Positions 1-4,655 of a DNA stretch of 64,000 nt are shown piece by piece (position 1 is the first letter of the stretch; each line of letters begins with the position of its first letter). The DNA comes from Candidatus Heimdallarchaeota archaeon (GTDB taxonomy: Archaea; Asgardarchaeota; Heimdallarchaeia; Hodarchaeales; Hodarchaeaceae): positions 55,468 through 119,467 of the forward strand of contig RDOB01000008.1 of NCBI GenBank assembly GCA_011364965.1, written 5' to 3'. A program made the position numbers and the translations under genes. A model generated the notes under the pieces. That model searched no databases and had not been told where the DNA came from. It was given only the letters and a program-made list of their open reading frames with translations.

Positions 1-561
1 TAACAAAAAAATCAATGTAATAAATTCAATTGCTTGATTCTCTACCCAATATACGATGAATCCTAAAATGAGAACTCCATTGTAAAGAATGACTAGCTCA
101 GAGGGGAGCCGCTTTCGAAATATGAAAATACTTGGATAACGTCCAGAATAATACTTTTGAATAAGAAAAAGTATCAACAGATATGATGAAAGACAAAATA
201 CAAGACTAAATAAATTTAGGAAAATATAGATAGCCCCATAACCAATTAAATCTAAGGAAAGAGTCATATTCAGGAAAGAGGTTTGTAAGAGACCATCTAA
301 ACCAATGGTAGCAGTACCAGCAAGAATACTTCCTCCAATCCCAGTAAGAGTAGGGATGAGGAGGAAAATACTAGCTGCTAGAGGTGCATTATAGGAATGA
401 TAATAGCGCCACTCTTCAAAAATTTTAATTACAGAAACAATGAATAATGTAATATAAAGAATGGTCAGAGAAATTTCACGAGATTGGCTTGTAAGATATG
501 AAAGCAGAGCAAAAACAGAACCAATAACGAGAATCGAAAGAAAAGCATTTCTTTTAACCAA
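1..561 (-). CDS. Multi-pass membrane protein, 3'-truncated by window edge; last visible gene of the Ubl operon (absent from ORF track)
   Basis: Manual translation from TTG at 561: MVKRNAFLSILVIGSVFALLSYLTSQSREISLTILYITLFIVSVIKIFEEWRYYHSYNAPLAASIFLLIPTLTGIGGSILAG...FITLIFLL, open for 187 codons to position 1; about 5-6 hydrophobic segments; starts 12 nt after the JAMM stop, with AGGA upstream. Confidence 0.8.
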   Translation of the reverse strand, partial: MVKRNAFLSILVIGSVFALLSYLTSQSREISLTILYITLFIVSVIKIFEEWRYYHSYNAPLAASIFLLIPTLTGIGGSILAGTATIGLDGLLQTSFLNMTLSLDLIGYGAIYIFLNLFSLVFCLSSYLLILFLIQKYYSGRYPSIFIFRKRLPSELVILYNGVLILGFIVYWVENQAIEFITLIFLL

Positions 562-573
562 CTAATGGACATC

Positions 574-1386
574 CTAATCATGGTCATATTCCAGAAACAT
601 TGTATCACCTTCAGCTAGAGGAAGGAGAGTACTTATCATATCAGGTAACCCGGAAAGTGGACAATTTAATACCTGAAAGCGGGGCTCCTCCCAACTTCGG
701 AGATCTTGCTTCAAACGAAAGATTTTAAATCCATAGGAATTTGTAGATATACGCGTAGGGTCAATAACCAGAGCAACAGGTGCTGTTAATGTGGAATTAT
801 TAGCCCCTAACCTTTGATACCGTACTTGTGTATCAAAATCCGTATCACTCATAAAAGAACCGTAGGATGGATGAGAATGATACCAGCCAAGAATAAATTC
901 CTTTTTTTTACTAGATTCATTAAATACTCGAACCATACTTTGGGGATTTCTAATTTGAGCTGTAATATTTGTACCATGACCAATAGGAAACGCATCAGTA
1001 GCTACTAAACAAGCCATCGGAGTGTCTTTATTCTCAATATATCCAGTTAATAAACCTATAACTTCCACCCATTTATGCTGAGGAATTTTAGGATTAGCAT
1101 ATTTCAAAGCGTGTAAAGTAAGCTTAATATAAGCTTTCAGATGCACTTTTACTCGTATAGGATCGGATTCGGGGTCTAAATCGCCTATTTCGATATCTTC
1201 AACTTCCTCAGAATGAGAATCTAGTTTAATATCATTATTATCATCGATTGGCACTTTTACGGCGTGATTTCCAGCAGTTGGAAATCGAACTGTCAATGTA
1301 AGATTATCAGGATCAAATTGAAGAGCCATGTCTCGTAAAAGAAGCTCAAAAAGGTTTTGAGGTCGGTTATTTGGTTCACGTTTCAT
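574..1386 (-). CDS. MPN+/JAMM metallo-isopeptidase (Rpn11/CSN5-like)
   Basis: EVIGLLTG, GWYHSHPSYGSFMSDTD (HxH-x7-S-x2-D JAMM motif), TQ..YQ and VALVIDPTR; acidic N-terminal extension of about 75 aa. Confidence 0.95.
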   Translation of the reverse strand: MKREPNNRPQNLFELLLRDMALQFDPDNLTLTVRFPTAGNHAVKVPIDDNNDIKLDSHSEEVEDIEIGDLDPESDPIRVKVHLKAYIKLTLHALKYANPKIPQHKWVEVIGLLTGYIENKDTPMACLVATDAFPIGHGTNITAQIRNPQSMVRVFNESSKKKEFILGWYHSHPSYGSFMSDTDFDTQVRYQRLGANNSTLTAPVALVIDPTRISTNSYGFKIFRLKQDLRSWEEPRFQVLNCPLSGLPDMISTLLPLAEGDTMFLEYDHD

Positions 1387-1406: not shown

Positions 1407-1934
1407 TTACCAGTTCTGTTTTGCATATTTCTTCGTGATTTCTCTGGCTTTCTTCTTGAACTTTTCCTTGCTTTGAAGGTATTCAACTGCAGCTTTTTTA
1501 TTGAAGACATCATGTGGATTGGTATATGCCTCATCAATGTTGAACATTGCAAGAATAGAATAGATAACAGTAGAAATGTTCTTGGAAGGAGACCAACCTT
1601 GAGGAGATCCAATTAAATCAGGATCAACGAGTCCTAGACAAATATTACGCTTTCCTTGATATTCATCAGGCTTAGGCCAAAAATTCGGATGCCAAATTGG
1701 AGTATGGAGCCTAACAAAAGGGGGAGAGTACGGATAATTTGTCCCAAACAGAATTTCGAGCCGAAATTTCCCACCTTCATATGGGGTGCTTTTAGGACCT
1801 TCTAATAACACTGCAAGGTGTTCGATTGATTTTTTACCACCAGGAAATGCTTTGAGTTGTTTGATTGTTTTTTGTTTATAGAGAGTTTTAAGTTGATTAT
1901 AATCATCAGCTATTCTTTTAATGCGAATGGACAA
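1407..1934 (-). CDS. Ubiquitin-conjugating enzyme E2 (UBC fold)
   Basis: GPKSTPYEGGKF, YPYSPPFV, WHPN, ICL (Cys99), WSP, and AREITKKYA C-terminal helix. Confidence 0.97.
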   Translation of the reverse strand: MSIRIKRIADDYNQLKTLYKQKTIKQLKAFPGGKKSIEHLAVLLEGPKSTPYEGGKFRLEILFGTNYPYSPPFVRLHTPIWHPNFWPKPDEYQGKRNICLGLVDPDLIGSPQGWSPSKNISTVIYSILAMFNIDEAYTNPHDVFNKKAAVEYLQSKEKFKKKAREITKKYAKQNW

Positions 1935-1936
1935 AG

Positions 1937-3184
1937 TTAATCCTCCAGTTTAAGATTTAGATACAGTTGAGTCCCATCTGCAAATCCTGTAACAAAAAGA
2001 GATTCATAATCTCTTAATTTGGCCTCAGAAATAGATAATGTCCAATCTAGCTCCTCTATGTTAGAGGAATCGATCCGAAAGATTGTCGGAGGAAATTCCT
2101 CATCAAAATCCAAGCTCTTCTCTTGAGAGAGGCAAATGATAAGCTCTTTTAACAGATAATGATGCTTAGCTTTCACATGATAAATAGGAGAACGCTTAGA
2201 ACCGCACATGGCACAATTAGTGTTGATTGGTTTTTCAAATTCGTAAAATTTGCCCGATAAACCGTTATAAATCATATAATTCAATTGGAGAGAACCAAGT
2301 TTTCGATCTTTATCTGACGTGTGGAGATGATGCAGAATTTTGACTGCTTCTTGTGATTGAAGAGAGGCCATGACTGCGTTAATAGTGATGACTGTGGGTT
2401 CATGATTGTCAACTATCTGAATAATTTGATCATTGGTGAAAGGAATAGCAGTAGGAAAGTATTCTGTGAGTAATTTATTAGCATAATCCCGCACTGTAGT
2501 AACTTCTGAAGCAACAAGGATATCAACAGGATGGTTGTGATCTTTTTCAAATTGGAGTTGCCCCTTTAGAATACAATGTGCTGGACGGCGAGGTTTTCCT
2601 ACTAAGGTACAGGCTCCAAGCTGATCTTGAGCTCGTTCAGTAAGTGGATCACATTCCAAGCAAGCATTAGTAAAAGGCCAAACAATATAGAGGTGACCAT
2701 TATAAGCGGCCGTACCTGCGTCAATAAGCGGTTTTTTGTTATGAACTGCCCTCCGATTCAATTCAGAACGAGCCTCAATAGAATCTAAACCAGCAATATA
2801 GAGATCAACCTCTTTATAGATTTTTGGAGGAAGATCTTGAAGAGGAGAGTTATATGCATCAATTCTGATAAAGGGATTAATATCACGGAGACGCTTAGCA
2901 GCATATTCAGCTTTCGATACTCCTTCTGGAGCTCCAATAAATAAAATCTGGCGATTCAAATTCGAGTATTCCACAATATCGAGATCAACAAGAACTAAAT
3001 GCCCAACACCGACCATAGCAAGATTTTTGGCAACTTCCACACCCAAACCACCGACTCCAGCGATCAGGACAGAGCTGCGTTTCAAGAGTTCTTGACTCCA
3101 GCCAGGAAGACGAAATTGTCGGTCAAAACGCTGCTTCTCAGCTTGACTAAGACTAGTACTTCCAAAATTGGACATTTTATTCAC
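1937..3184 (-). CDS. Ubiquitin-like activating enzyme E1 (ThiF adenylation domain + catalytic-Cys insert + C-terminal UFD-like domain; Uba3/Uba2-like)
   Basis: RFDRQ, GVGGLG, DLDIVEYSNLNRQILF, LDSIEAR, CLEC...CAMC Zn pair, ACTLVGKPRRPAHCI catalytic-Cys motif. Confidence 0.95.
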   Translation of the reverse strand: MNKMSNFGSTSLSQAEKQRFDRQFRLPGWSQELLKRSSVLIAGVGGLGVEVAKNLAMVGVGHLVLVDLDIVEYSNLNRQILFIGAPEGVSKAEYAAKRLRDINPFIRIDAYNSPLQDLPPKIYKEVDLYIAGLDSIEARSELNRRAVHNKKPLIDAGTAAYNGHLYIVWPFTNACLECDPLTERAQDQLGACTLVGKPRRPAHCILKGQLQFEKDHNHPVDILVASEVTTVRDYANKLLTEYFPTAIPFTNDQIIQIVDNHEPTVITINAVMASLQSQEAVKILHHLHTSDKDRKLGSLQLNYMIYNGLSGKFYEFEKPINTNCAMCGSKRSPIYHVKAKHHYLLKELIICLSQEKSLDFDEEFPPTIFRIDSSNIEELDWTLSISEAKLRDYESLFVTGFADGTQLYLNLKLED

Positions 3185-3198
3185 TTCTTAGACCGATT

Positions 3199-3555
3199 CT
3201 AGTACCCTGCAGTACTGACTGGGATGATTAAAACTTCCATTCCATCTTCTACATCATAGTTTGAAACTACATCATCAGAATCAAGAGTACGCCCACTAAT
3301 AGATAAATGAAAATCATTGGGGTCTAATCCAAAGATTTCCCCAATTGTAGTTTTTAACTCACTTACTGACATTTCAGGGTCAACTCTTAATTTTTCTAAC
3401 TTCTCTCGAGGCCCAATAGTGGAACGAAAGAATAAGTTCACTGATGCGCCTCGTGAGGGGGTTTGTTTTGGTGTTTTGGATTGGATGGGTCTTTCTGTTT
3501 CTTGAATTTCTTCATCTAATTCATCTAGCTCTTCAAAATCCTCATTCTCTGACAT
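3199..3555 (-). CDS. Ubiquitin-like protein (Ubl-2), precursor ending STAG-Y
   Basis: Beta-grasp pattern (SVSELKTTI, FHLSISGRTLDSDDVVSNYDVEDGMEVLII); acidic N-terminal tail; 14 nt upstream of E1. Confidence 0.9.
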   Translation of the reverse strand: MSENEDFEELDELDEEIQETERPIQSKTPKQTPSRGASVNLFFRSTIGPREKLEKLRVDPEMSVSELKTTIGEIFGLDPNDFHLSISGRTLDSDDVVSNYDVEDGMEVLIIPVSTAGY

Positions 3556-3583
3556 CTAGCTTTCAATCCTCATATCGTAGTAG

Positions 3584-3629
3584 ACATGAAGTATTACCAA
3601 GATGTGTCTTAAAAGCTAATTGAAATATA
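3584..3629 (-). promoter_or_regulatory. Putative promoter of the Ubl-2/E1/E2/JAMM unit (TATA-like CTTTTAAG)
   Basis: Minus strand TATATTTC-AATT-AGCTTTTAAG-N8-TGGTA-ATAC-TTCATGT, collinear with the element upstream of Ubl-1. Confidence 0.55.
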
Positions 3630-3737
3630 TCCTTCAGAGGGAATGGAGAAATTGAGGAGCCATCACGTTCATACACGAGATAAACTCAGATTGATAGTAA
3701 TCTAGATTCCTCAGAAAAATAATAAGACCGCAAGGAC

Positions 3738-4085
3738 TTAACCTGCGGTCGAGTGAGGAATTAAAAGAACCTCGTCACCATTTTCAATACCATAATCCCC
3801 AATTGGGGCAGACTCGTCCATGGTACGACCAGCGTGACTAAGATGAAAGTCATCAGGGTTTAAACCAAAGATATTTGCTAGAGTATCTCGGACTTCTCTG
3901 ACAGGAGCTCTTTCCCCAACAGAGATCTTTTCAGTTCGTTCAGGACCAACGGTAGATTTAAAGAAAATGTTCTTTCGTGGACCAGCAGAGGCCCCAGAGA
4001 TAGGGGTCTTAGATTGTTGAGGGGTTTTTGATTTAACCTCAATTTTTTCGTCTAGATCAAAATCTAAATCTTCAAAATCACTCAT
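3738..4085 (-). CDS. Ubiquitin-like protein (Ubl-1), ending STAG
   Basis: Clear paralogue of Ubl-2 (NIFFKSTVGP, IFGLNPDDFHLSHAGRTMD, DYGIENGDEVLLIP). ATG at 4085 preferred over TTG at 4094 because GGATG lies upstream and MSDFED matches the Ubl-2 N-terminus. Confidence 0.9.
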   Translation of the reverse strand: MSDFEDLDFDLDEKIEVKSKTPQQSKTPISGASAGPRKNIFFKSTVGPERTEKISVGERAPVREVRDTLANIFGLNPDDFHLSHAGRTMDESAPIGDYGIENGDEVLLIPHSTAG

Positions 4086-4132
4086 ATTTTTCAAACATCC
4101 ATTTTTTTATGTTTAGAGTTTCATAAGAAACT

Positions 4133-4259: not shown

Positions 4260-4655
4260 GTGTCAAAAGACGCCCAAAATATTAAGATTTCCAGTTCTGC
4301 TTGGGAATTACTGCGCTGGGCAAAATATGAATTAGAAGTGCGTTCCTATAGTGATGTAATAATAGCATTATACCAAAAAATCGAGTTAAAGCACTTAAGC
4401 AAGACATTACGTCAATCATTAAAAGATTTTGATGAAACGCGTCATAGAATTAAAATAAAGACTCCAGAAGATAAAACGGAAGCTCCTTATTTACCTAAAC
4501 CTAAAACCATTCTTCTTAGGCCAGATGCCCATAGAATCCTTAATTTATTAAAAATTGAGAGTAACGAACCAGCTTATACATTTTCAGATGCAATCGAATT
4601 TCTTGCAAAAAACAATTCTAACCTTTGGAATAAAATTCCTAACAGATTAAAATGA
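4260..4655 (+). CDS. Tandem ribbon-helix-helix (antitoxin/DUF217-like) DNA-binding protein
   Basis: Internal duplication NIKISSSAWELLRWAK...SYSDVIIAL / TILLRPDAHRILNLLK...TFSDAIEFL, each a strand-helix-S(F/Y)SD(V/A)I-helix unit. Confidence 0.65.
   Translation: MSKDAQNIKISSSAWELLRWAKYELEVRSYSDVIIALYQKIELKHLSKTLRQSLKDFDETRHRIKIKTPEDKTEAPYLPKPKTILLRPDAHRILNLLKIESNEPAYTFSDAIEFLAKNNSNLWNKIPNRLK

What the first reader, a model, noticed from the sequence alone, without database searches (positions are those of the whole stretch)
3199..4085. Two Ubl paralogues with single-Gly ends: one born mature (STAG*), one capped by a Tyr (STAG-Y*)
Seen: both end in Ser-Thr-Ala-Gly rather than Gly-Gly; Ubl-2 has one extra Tyr. 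Established: single-Gly termini with short caps occur in UFM1 and Atg8, and JAMM enzymes can mature pro-Ubls. Inference: Ubl-1 is directly conjugatable while Ubl-2 needs the operon JAMM, giving two modifiers under different control.
Basis: partly seen in the sequence, partly recalled or inferred. Interest (0 to 1): 0.8.

Follow-up and report, generated by a model that had tools for sequence, protein, structure and literature searches.

The report
Asgard Ala-Gly ubiquitin-like tag pair
Two neighbouring genes of a Hodarchaeales-type Asgard archaeon encode ubiquitin-like protein tags that end in Ala-Gly instead of Gly-Gly; the extra tyrosine on one of them is a recent, throw-away tail, not a conserved control device.

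Summary
On the minus strand, 3738-4085 (Ubl-A, ends HSTAG-stop) and 3199-3555 (Ubl-B, ends VSTAG-Y-stop) are 48% identical ubiquitin-family paralogues. They head an operon with E1, E2, a JAMM protease and a membrane protein with a RING/U-box-like domain.

Both belong to a family found across Asgard archaea (234 genome loci) whose tail, IP-x-S-T-A-G, is almost invariant. The cap is not conserved:
- About half of 198 homologues stop at the Gly. The rest carry variable tails, mostly of 1-3 residues.
- Cap state changes at least 8 times in the Ubl-A clade and at least 16 times in the Ubl-B clade.
- The closest relative's Ubl-B has no Tyr, and some Ubl-A orthologues are capped instead.
- The DNA indicates stop-codon drift.

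Processing after the Gly is still very likely. Relatives encode head-to-tail di- and tri-Ubl genes in the same operon, and the JAMM's nearest solved relative is CsRpn11, which matures pro-ubiquitin.

Stable differences between the paralogues lie elsewhere: His versus Val at the ubiquitin-72 position, and a terminator-like hairpin after Ubl-A only.

The scan reached the same reading earlier on other genomes (e1-5541755, e1-5543302). My verdict is an ordinary throw-away cap on an interesting, apparently undescribed Ala-Gly Ubl family. No biochemistry or complex prediction was obtained.

The parts
3738..4085 (-). Ubl-A. A 115-aa ubiquitin-family modifier with a disordered acidic/KTP-rich N-tail and a beta-grasp core. 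It ends LLIPHSTAG followed directly by TAA ('born mature').
   Evidence: (PF00240, 29.5 bits). Relatives begin at the MSDFEDL Met (P0001 is 115 aa).
3716..3750 (-). Terminator-like hairpin (9 bp stem, 6 GC pairs) that overlaps the Ubl-A stop codon and is followed by a T-rich run.
   Evidence: The same hairpin is present in the closest genome. A comparable hairpin plus T-run follows Ubl-A in 7 of 17 syntenic loci and follows Ubl-B in 0 of 17. Function is inferred only.
3199..3555 (-). Ubl-B. A 118-aa paralogue (48% identical to Ubl-A) that ends LIIPVSTAG-Y-stop. The Tyr codon is at 3202-3204.
   Evidence: (PF00240, 30.3 bits). In the AF2 model residues 1-37 are disordered, the beta-grasp spans 39-112 with pLDDT above 90, and the tail 113-118 is flexible. 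The best fold matches are Caldiarchaeum ubiquitin and ubiquitins.
1937..3184 (-). E1-like activating enzyme (ThiF fold with a catalytic-Cys region). The real start is probably the ATG at 3175.
   Evidence: PF00899, 180.8 bits; nearest solved structures are the UBA1 active adenylation domain and UBA3 (residues 31-358 against 35-366, E 6e-31). UBA5 scores only 1.6e-14. The orthologue in L090 is 412 aa.
1407..1934 (-). UBC-fold E2 conjugating enzyme.
   Evidence: PF00179, 93.5 bits; nearest solved structures are UBE2T, UBC13 and UBE2D2.
574..1386 (-). JAMM/MPN+ metalloprotease. It is the candidate enzyme for cap removal, poly-Ubl cleavage and deconjugation.
   Evidence: PF01398, 48.8 bits; the best solved relative is Caldiarchaeum CsRpn11 (6fju/6fjv/6fnn, E 6e-12), then CSN5 and Rpn11. 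E108, H170, H172, S180 and D183 are invariant in 33 orthologues.
1..561 (-). N-terminal, polytopic membrane part of the last operon gene. The full protein is 367 aa and runs off the window. Its C-terminal domain looks like a RING/U-box.
   Evidence: The pattern C-x2-C-x13-C-x2-C-x4-H-x13-C-x2-C is invariant in 25 orthologues. Pfam hits are weak (Prok-RING_1, E 0.0036, below cut-off). The AF2 model has pLDDT 85. The Foldseek top hits are almost all U-box/RING E3 domains, but weak (E 3.5e-3 to 0.1, TM about 0.5-0.6).
4260..4655 (+). Divergently transcribed small gene, RHH/VapB-antitoxin-like, that is syntenic with the operon.
   Evidence: PF02697, E 9e-5, below cut-off. An orthologue sits in the same divergent position in 14 of 16 Hodarchaeales loci (L005-L020).

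Best explanation
The two genes are the A and B paralogues of a family of ubiquitin-like modifiers found across Asgard archaea, whose reactive tail is IP-x-S-T-A-G, with Ala-Gly in place of ubiquitin's Gly-Gly.

Inferred pathway: the operon's E1 adenylates the terminal Gly, the UBC E2 carries the thioester, and the membrane protein with the RING/U-box-like domain probably acts as ligase or adaptor at the membrane. The Rpn11-like JAMM cuts after the Gly, both to release the tag from targets and to mature precursors.

Precursors in this family come in three interchangeable forms: bare (stop directly after Gly), short-capped (mostly 1-3 residues) and head-to-tail poly-Ubl. The window's single Tyr is a young, lineage-specific cap. 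It looks like a former stop codon mutated to TAC, with the frame running to the next in-frame stop (TAG). Such a change is tolerated because a processing activity already exists.

The cap is therefore not a conserved switch that separates the two modifiers. The conserved differences are the residue at the ubiquitin-72-equivalent position (His in A, Val in B), several core surface positions, and gene organisation: Ubl-A is followed by a terminator-like hairpin, while Ubl-B is packed 14-23 nt upstream of E1.

Shown here: sequences, family membership, conservation, synteny, fold and cap turnover. Inferred: every enzymatic step.
For: Family and tail:
- 198 of 205 homologues carry the motif.
- S, A and G are invariant.
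- 234 loci were found in species-representative genomes. All titles but one name Asgard lineages or unclassified archaea.

Cap turnover:
- 97 homologues are bare and 101 are capped, with 71 of the caps 1-3 aa long.
- Cap state changes at least 8 times in the A clade (48 rows, support 97) and at least 16 times in the B clade (78 rows, support 99).
- Among 18 syntenic operons, 9 have A bare and B capped, 4 have A capped and B bare, and 5 have both bare.
- The closest genome's Ubl-B ends GGT TAA.

Stop-codon drift at DNA level:
- TGA against TGG-AAT-TAA, and ATC-TAA against ATC-TAC-TAC-TGA. The window reads GGG-TAC-TAG.

Processing after Gly must exist:
- 12 protein clusters are di- or tri-Ubl fusions. 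Each internal junction is IP-x-S-[TQ]-A-G followed at once by the next unit's acidic N-terminus.
- Unit-to-unit identity is 58-99%, so the fusions are maintained over long divergence.
- The junction is seen in contiguous DNA.
- The same E1-E2-JAMM-membrane-protein operon lies downstream.

JAMM as the protease:
- It lies in the operon in 59 of the 80 scanned loci. Most loci without it are truncated or end soon after the Ubl gene.
- The catalytic residues are invariant.
- The nearest solved relative, CsRpn11, cleaves pro-CsUb exactly after the terminal Gly and also cleaves conjugates.
- No natural cap starts with Asp, Glu or Pro (0 of 101). This fits the CsRpn11 result that Cys79Glu at the first residue after the cut blocks cleavage.

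Paralogue-specific positions:
- His (92%) against Val (97%) at the Ub-72 equivalent, and His (100%) against Ile (87%) at the Ub-45 equivalent (register).

Hairpin.
Against: - No biochemical, expression or complex-prediction data were obtained.
- For CsRpn11, the nearest characterised enzyme, a Gly77Ala pro-ubiquitin (an Ala-Gly end) was processed much more slowly, and bulky residues just after the cut blocked cleavage. A CsRpn11-like pocket would therefore handle STAG-Tyr poorly unless this JAMM has co-evolved, which is untested.
- The genome encodes at least four other JAB-domain proteins.
- A one-residue cap could equally be removed by a carboxypeptidase.
- In the 18 syntenic operons no case has both paralogues capped (about 2 expected). 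This is not significant, but it leaves room for weak selection to keep one bare copy.
- The ubiquitin-numbering equivalences outside residues 54-104 assume no indel.
Confidence: 0.6

Rival explanations
1. The Tyr cap is a functional gate: Ubl-A is constitutively conjugatable, while Ubl-B stays inert until the operon JAMM removes the Tyr. The two modifiers are thereby placed under different post-translational control.
For: In this genome the asymmetry is real. In 13 of 18 syntenic operons exactly one of the two paralogues is capped, and in none are both capped. Capped pro-Ubls that need a JAMM are documented for Caldiarchaeum.
Against: The capped paralogue swaps between lineages, with A capped in L008-L010 and L015. 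Five operons have no cap at all, including the closest genome. Cap sequence and length are not conserved, and the state changes at least 24 times across the two clades. Caps look like read-through into AT-rich spacer after stop-codon mutations. The JAMM is co-transcribed with Ubl-B, so it would be made together with its supposed gate.
Confidence: 0.12
2. The caps, including the Tyr, are trimmed by an enzyme other than the operon JAMM, such as a carboxypeptidase or one of the other JAB proteins. The operon JAMM serves only as a deconjugase.
For: CsRpn11 disfavours Ala at the penultimate position and bulky residues after the cut. The genome has four further JAB-domain genes. Caps are mostly 1-3 residues, a size that exopeptidases can remove.
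Against: Poly-Ubl junctions need an endopeptidase that cuts after STAG, and those genes sit in the same JAMM-containing operon. Two of the other JAB genes lie beside or near the genome's Gly-Gly Ubl systems. No Ulp/C48 or OTU protease was detected in the 87%-complete genome.
Confidence: 0.15
3. Capped Ubl-B is not a conjugated modifier in this organism. The Tyr blocks activation for good, and the protein acts non-covalently, for example as an adaptor or decoy for the E1/E2.
For: A blocked C-terminus cannot be adenylated (established E1 chemistry). Loki-type loci hold Ubl-like genes that lack any terminal Gly, so non-conjugatable relatives do exist.
Against: The STAG tail is fully preserved in Ubl-B and in all capped family members. 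That preservation is expected only if the Gly is used. The gene keeps its position directly upstream of E1.
Confidence: 0.05

Closest known systems
Caldiarchaeum subterraneum ubiquitin operon (pro-CsUb, E1, E2, small RING, CsRpn11; PMC5654768, PMC6043591)
   Same: Both are archaeal operons with a ubiquitin-fold modifier, an E1 with a catalytic Cys, a UBC E2 and an Rpn11-like JAMM. CsUb is the best fold match to Ubl-B and CsRpn11 is the best solved match to the JAMM. CsUb is made with a C-terminal extension that CsRpn11 removes.
   Different: Here the tail is Ala-Gly, not Gly-Gly, and each modifier has a disordered N-terminal extension of about 37-40 residues. There are two paralogous modifiers. 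The RING-like domain is the C-terminus of a polytopic membrane protein rather than a small soluble RING. The cap is 0 or 1 residue against 9. Nothing here has been tested biochemically.
Eukaryotic ubiquitin precursor genes (polyubiquitin with a variable last-repeat cap)
   Same: The two share a beta-grasp fold and an identical tail register (G117 = Ub G76). Relatives of Ubl-A are encoded as head-to-tail repeats whose last unit usually carries a short variable cap. The polyubiquitin-like hits of the profile search likewise end RLRGG plus one variable residue (Q, I, A, S, M, N, F).
   Different: The window itself holds single-unit genes only. The repeats in relatives number 2-3, keep the long N-tail in each unit and end Ala-Gly. 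The likely protease is a JAMM rather than a UCH/USP cysteine protease. Identity to ubiquitin is about 20%.
UFM1 and ATG8 (single-Gly Ubls with short caps)
   Same: One example is Leishmania Ufm1 (PMC3930514 abstract).
   Different: There is no Pfam match to UFM1 or Atg8 at E up to 0.1. The E1 resembles UBA1/UBA3/UBA2 far more than UBA5. The E2 is a canonical UBC, not UFC1/Atg3. The protease is a metalloprotease, not a UfSP/Atg4 cysteine protease. Asgard archaea have separate UFM1 homologues (PMC12962969).
NEDD8 pathway (UBA3, CSN5)
   Same: The E1 aligns over almost its full length with UBA3 and CSN5 is among the nearest JAMM structures. As with ubiquitin Arg72 against NEDD8 Ala72 (established knowledge), the two paralogues differ at the position-72 equivalent.
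   Different: There is a single-gene E1 with no APPBP1-like partner in the operon, the tail is Ala-Gly, and no cullin-type target is evident. UBA1 and CsRpn11 score as well as or better than UBA3 and CSN5.

Membership tests
Ubiquitin family (PF00240) conjugatable modifiers | Beta-grasp ubiquitin fold or profile match | tested here: met
   PF00240 scores 30.3 and 29.5 bits against a cut-off of 25.4. The AF2 beta-grasp has pLDDT above 90 over residues 39-112. Foldseek matches ubiquitins with target TM up to 0.9.
Ubiquitin family (PF00240) conjugatable modifiers | C-terminal Gly-Gly | tested here: not met
   The tail is S-T-A-G. Ala is invariant at the Gly75-equivalent position in both paralogue clades.
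Ubiquitin family (PF00240) conjugatable modifiers | Terminal Gly free or exposable, aligned with Ub Gly76 | tested here: met
   The offset is 41 to ubiquitin. The Gly aligns with the terminal Gly of the genome's own GG-type Ubls. The Gly is invariant.
Ubiquitin family (PF00240) conjugatable modifiers | Covalent attachment to target lysines through E1 and E2 | not testable with these tools
   E1 and E2 genes are adjacent and syntenic in most loci. No conjugation data exist.
Caldiarchaeum/Asgard eukaryote-like ubiquitin operon | Modifier, Cys-domain E1, UBC E2 and Rpn11-like JAMM in one cluster | tested here: met
   The gene order is conserved in Hodarchaeales and Loki-type loci.
Caldiarchaeum/Asgard eukaryote-like ubiquitin operon | RING-type E3 in the cluster | tested here: inconclusive
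   The last gene has an invariant Cys/His pattern and a confident model whose top fold hits are U-box/RING domains. However, those hits have E of only 3.5e-3 to 0.1 and the Pfam RING hits fall below cut-off.
Caldiarchaeum/Asgard eukaryote-like ubiquitin operon | Pro-modifier matured by the operon JAMM | not testable with these tools
   The cap (window) and poly-Ubl junctions (relatives) show that cleavage is needed. The enzyme responsible is inferred from synteny and from CsRpn11.
UFM1 | UFM1 profile match, UBA5-type E1, UFC1 E2 | tested here: not met
   No UFM1 family appears among Pfam hits at E up to 0.1. The E1 scores 6e-31 to UBA3 against 1.6e-14 to UBA5. The E2 is PF00179.
ATG8/ATG12 | Atg8/Atg12 profile match with Atg7/Atg3-type enzymes | tested here: not met
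   There is no such Pfam hit. No Atg7 chain appears among the 58 solved E1-type matches with E up to 1e-10, and the E2 matches canonical UBC enzymes.
SAMP/ThiS/MoaD sulfur-carrier type modifiers | ThiS/MoaD profile, Gly-Gly end, E1 without Cys domain and no E2 | tested here: not met
   The window proteins have no PF02597 hit. A UBC E2 is present, and the E1 aligns with UBA3 through the Cys region. JGI's name 'molybdopterin converting factor small subunit' for some poly-Ubls is likely a mis-annotation.
Polyubiquitin-type precursor genes | In-frame head-to-tail repeats of the modifier | tested here: not met
   This is not the case in the window, where there are two separate genes 182 nt apart. 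It is the case in relatives: 12 clusters of di- or tri-Ubl, plus L085.

The most novel reading that the evidence does not exclude
The Ala-Gly Ubls may define a distinct conjugation pathway found across Asgard archaea and separate from the Gly-Gly ubiquitin systems of the same genomes. It would have its own E1, E2, Rpn11-like protease and membrane-anchored RING-like ligase. Its modifier genes already show the eukaryotic precursor logic: polyubiquitin-like head-to-tail repeats, disposable end caps and protease maturation. If so, polyubiquitin gene architecture and pro-Ubl processing predate eukaryotes. The A and B paralogues would be told apart by the residue at the ubiquitin-72 position, as ubiquitin and NEDD8 are.
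Probability: 0.35. Interest if true: 0.75.

Novelty: new variant of a known kind. Interest (0 to 1): 0.55.

Why it matters
Asgard archaea are the closest known relatives of eukaryotes, and their ubiquitin systems are used to reconstruct how eukaryotic protein tagging arose.

This locus matters for three reasons:
- The 'obligatory' Gly-Gly end is replaced by a strictly conserved Ala-Gly in a large archaeal family with its own enzymes.
- That replacement gives a natural test of how E1s and JAMM proteases read the modifier tail, because the nearest characterised protease handles an Ala-Gly end poorly.
- Relatives encode poly-Ubl precursors, a gene architecture usually regarded as eukaryotic.

For the specific claim under review, the result is sobering. 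The single Tyr is an evolutionary throw-away, comparable to the variable last residue of eukaryotic polyubiquitin genes, and not a regulatory invention.

Tried and rejected
- **Complex prediction.** Complex prediction (JAMM residues 70-269 with Ubl-B residues 36-118, both as alignments) was sent nine times and the machine could not be reached each time. No complex prediction exists.
- **Closest Ubl-B orthologue.** DNA of the closest Ubl-B orthologue by protein search (P0122) could not be fetched. The closest syntenic genome (L090) was used instead.
- **Promoter scan.** The sigma-70 scan is uninformative for an archaeon and gave no excess (3 found, 2.9 expected). TATA-like boxes upstream of both Ubl genes were seen by eye only and are not claimed.
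- **Other families.** Membership in UFM1, ATG8 and SAMP/MoaD was considered and rejected.
- **'Exactly one capped' pattern.** I considered whether this pattern in syntenic operons is selected. With 0 both-capped cases against about 2 expected, it is not significant. Protein-database pairs that appear to share a contig (P0030/P0186, P0031/P0195, by equal contig length only) seem to be both capped.
- **Literature.** Searches for Asgard with JAMM/ubiquitin-like, Asgard with polyubiquitin, polyubiquitin gene with archaea, and Hodarchaeales with ubiquitin found no description of an Ala-Gly Ubl family or of archaeal poly-Ubl genes. This covers only the held open-access library and is not proof of absence.
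Full report
**Observation.** The window's minus strand carries two small ORFs inside the reported coordinates.
- Ubl-A is at 3738-4085. The ORF finder starts it at a TTG at 4094, but relatives start at the ATG, giving 115 aa. It ends LLIPHSTAG followed directly by TAA.
- Ubl-B is at 3199-3555 (118 aa) and ends LIIPVSTAG-Y followed by TAG. The codons read GGG TAC TAG.
- The two are 48% identical (E 3e-32), and both pass the Pfam ubiquitin model's curated threshold.
- The exact Tyr-bearing sequence is on record from six contigs.

**Surroundings.** Downstream on the same strand, separated by only a few bases, lie four more genes:
- A ThiF-type E1 (1937-3184), whose nearest solved relatives are the UBA1 adenylation domain, UBA3 over nearly its full length, and UBA2.
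- A UBC E2 (1407-1934).
- A JAMM/MPN+ protease (574-1386), whose best solved relative is the Caldiarchaeum Rpn11 homologue CsRpn11. Its Glu, two His, Ser and Asp catalytic residues are invariant in 33 orthologues.
- A polytopic membrane protein that runs off the window (1-561).

I fetched the rest of the membrane protein from the genome. It ends in a domain with an invariant C-x2-C...C-x2-C...H...C-x2-C pattern. The domain folds confidently, and its best fold matches are almost all U-box/RING E3 domains, but only at weak E-values. Pfam RING hits fall below threshold. A small RHH-like gene is transcribed divergently.

The same genome also has two ordinary Gly-Gly Ubl/E1 loci on other contigs and at least four more JAB-domain genes.

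**The family.** Protein searches with both paralogues returned 205 homologues. Those that carry names are named as Hodarchaeales, Heimdallarchaeota, Promethearchaeota (Loki) and similar Asgard groups.
- 198 of them carry P-x-S-[TSL]-A-G at or near the C-terminus.
- In a 48-sequence alignment the Ser, Ala and Gly are invariant.
- A pattern scan of one genome per species found 234 confirmed loci.
- In the 80 loci fetched, Hodarchaeales show the same order as the window: RHH, Ubl-A, Ubl-B, E1, E2, JAMM, membrane protein. Loki-type genomes show one PASTAG Ubl followed by the same enzymes.
- Ubl-B's model is a ubiquitin beta-grasp with a disordered 37-residue N-tail and a free C-terminal tail. Its best structural match is Caldiarchaeum ubiquitin.
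- The phmmer register to ubiquitin is an offset of 41. This places Gly117 on Gly76, Ala116 on Gly75 and Val113 (His in Ubl-A) on Arg72.

**The cap.** Among the 198 homologues, 97 end at the Gly and 101 continue. Of the caps, 71 are 1-3 residues long and their sequences vary widely.
- On a tree of the cores, the A and B paralogues form well-supported clades (97 and 99). Cap state needs at least 8 changes in A and at least 16 in B. A one-residue Y cap occurs only in the window.
- Among 18 syntenic operons, 9 have A bare and B capped, 4 have A capped (WN/WR) and B bare, and 5 have both bare.
- The nearest genome (Ubl-A 92% identical) has the same hairpin after Ubl-A, but its Ubl-B ends GGT TAA.
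- The DNA shows how caps arise. Where one genome has TGA, another has TGG AAT TAA. Where one has ATC TAA, another has ATC TAC TAC TGA. These are stop-codon mutations that read on to the next stop in an AT-rich spacer.

**Is processing real?** Yes, very probably.
- A search restricted to longer proteins found 12 clusters of di- and tri-Ubl proteins. Every internal junction is IP-x-S-[TQ]-A-G followed directly by the acidic N-terminus of the next unit.
- All units are of the A type, and unit-to-unit identity ranges from 58% to 99%. The fusions are therefore maintained and are not assembly accidents.
- One junction was read in contiguous DNA next to a scaffold gap.
- The fused genes sit in the same E1-E2-JAMM-membrane-protein operon.
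- The last unit usually bears a 2-8-residue cap. This mirrors the polyubiquitin-like hits of the profile search, which end RLRGG plus one variable residue.

The obvious protease is the operon JAMM. CsRpn11 cleaves pro-CsUb exactly after its last Gly and also cleaves conjugates. No natural cap in this family begins with Asp, Glu or Pro, in line with the CsRpn11 finding that Glu directly after the cut blocks cleavage.

There are caveats. CsRpn11 processed a Gly77Ala (Ala-Gly) substrate much more slowly and disliked bulky residues after the cut. This JAMM must therefore have an adapted pocket, or another enzyme trims short caps. I could not test binding because the complex-prediction service was unreachable.

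**What really distinguishes the paralogues.** Several positions are conserved within each clade but differ between them. They include the Ub-72 equivalent (His 92% against Val 97%) and the Ub-45 equivalent (His 100% against Ile 87%). In ubiquitin and NEDD8, residue 72 sets E1 choice (established knowledge). Whether it does so here is inference.

Ubl-A is followed by a 9-bp GC-rich hairpin and T-run that overlap its stop codon. The hairpin is conserved in the closest genome, and similar elements follow Ubl-A in 7 of 17 loci but never follow Ubl-B. Ubl-B abuts E1. Different dosage by transcription is thus more plausible than control by the cap, but it is untested.

**Comparison and novelty.** The system works like the Caldiarchaeum/Asgard eukaryote-like ubiquitin operons. 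It differs in five respects: the invariant Ala-Gly tail, the long N-tails, the paralogue pair, the membrane-anchored RING-like protein, and the poly-Ubl genes in relatives. It is not UFM1, ATG8 or a SAMP. I found no paper describing the Ala-Gly family or archaeal poly-Ubl genes in the held library. Earlier follow-ups of this scan on other genomes reached the same reading.

**Verdict.** The cap is ordinary. The family is a new variant of a known kind.

Noticed in passing
L085:5628-6432; L086:5001-5690; L088:2960-3697 (proteins P0206-P0217): Relatives encode in-frame head-to-tail di- and tri-Ubl-A genes, a polyubiquitin-like architecture, upstream of the same E1-E2-JAMM-membrane-protein operon. 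Unit-to-unit identity is 58-99%. L085 has a 100-N scaffold gap inside its first unit, so its copy number is unknown.
   Followed up: yes
window 1-561 (-) and L089:4926-6029 (-): The last operon gene is a 367-aa polytopic membrane protein. Its C-terminal 70 or so residues carry an invariant Cys/His pattern and fold like a U-box/RING domain (weak Foldseek E-values, Pfam below cut-off). It is a candidate membrane-anchored E3 and is conserved in Hodarchaeales and Loki-type loci.
   Followed up: partly
L001:1477-2739 and L004:1-2888 (other contigs of the same genome): The genome has two further Ubl/E1 systems with ordinary Gly-Gly ends. One is a 77-aa Ub-like protein ending TTGG next to a 331-aa E1, with a small GTPase and a KaiC-like gene nearby. 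The other is a 107-aa Ubl ending IKGG next to a 416-aa E1, with a divergent E2 fragment and, just upstream, a JAB gene.
   Followed up: partly
window 3716-3750 (-): A terminator-like hairpin overlaps the Ubl-A stop codon. It is conserved in the closest genome, and similar elements follow Ubl-A but never Ubl-B in syntenic loci. This suggests that Ubl-A is also made as a short separate transcript.
   Followed up: partly
proteins P0229, P0230, P0233, P0239, P0250, P0253, P0256, P0273: These proteins are 255-327 aa long, with an N-terminal C-P-x-C zinc-ribbon region of about 200 aa and a C-terminal STAG-type Ubl, either bare or capped. They appear to be a fusion form of the family in which a whole protein would carry the reactive Ala-Gly end.
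   Followed up: no
L029, L031, L041, L044 and other Loki-type loci, about 1.8-2.3 kb upstream of the main Ubl: Loki-type operons carry an extra Ubl ending PASIAG or PASTAG, and a reverse-strand Ubl-like gene that lacks any terminal Gly (ends ...SRKEKN or similar).
   Followed up: no
L058 (DATKTW010000176.1): A contig titled 'Candidatus Nanopelagicaceae bacterium' carries a complete Loki-type PASTAG-Ubl/E1/E2/JAMM/membrane-protein operon. It is most likely a mis-binned Asgard contig. Some Hodarchaeales-like loci are likewise titled Thor- or Hermodarchaeota.
   Followed up: no
window 3970-4085 and 3445-3555 (-), N-termini of both Ubls: Both modifiers, and each unit of the poly-Ubls, begin with a conserved acidic D-F-E-D/E-L motif (Phe at least 90% conserved) followed by S-K-T-P-like repeats. 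The region is predicted to be disordered.
   Followed up: no
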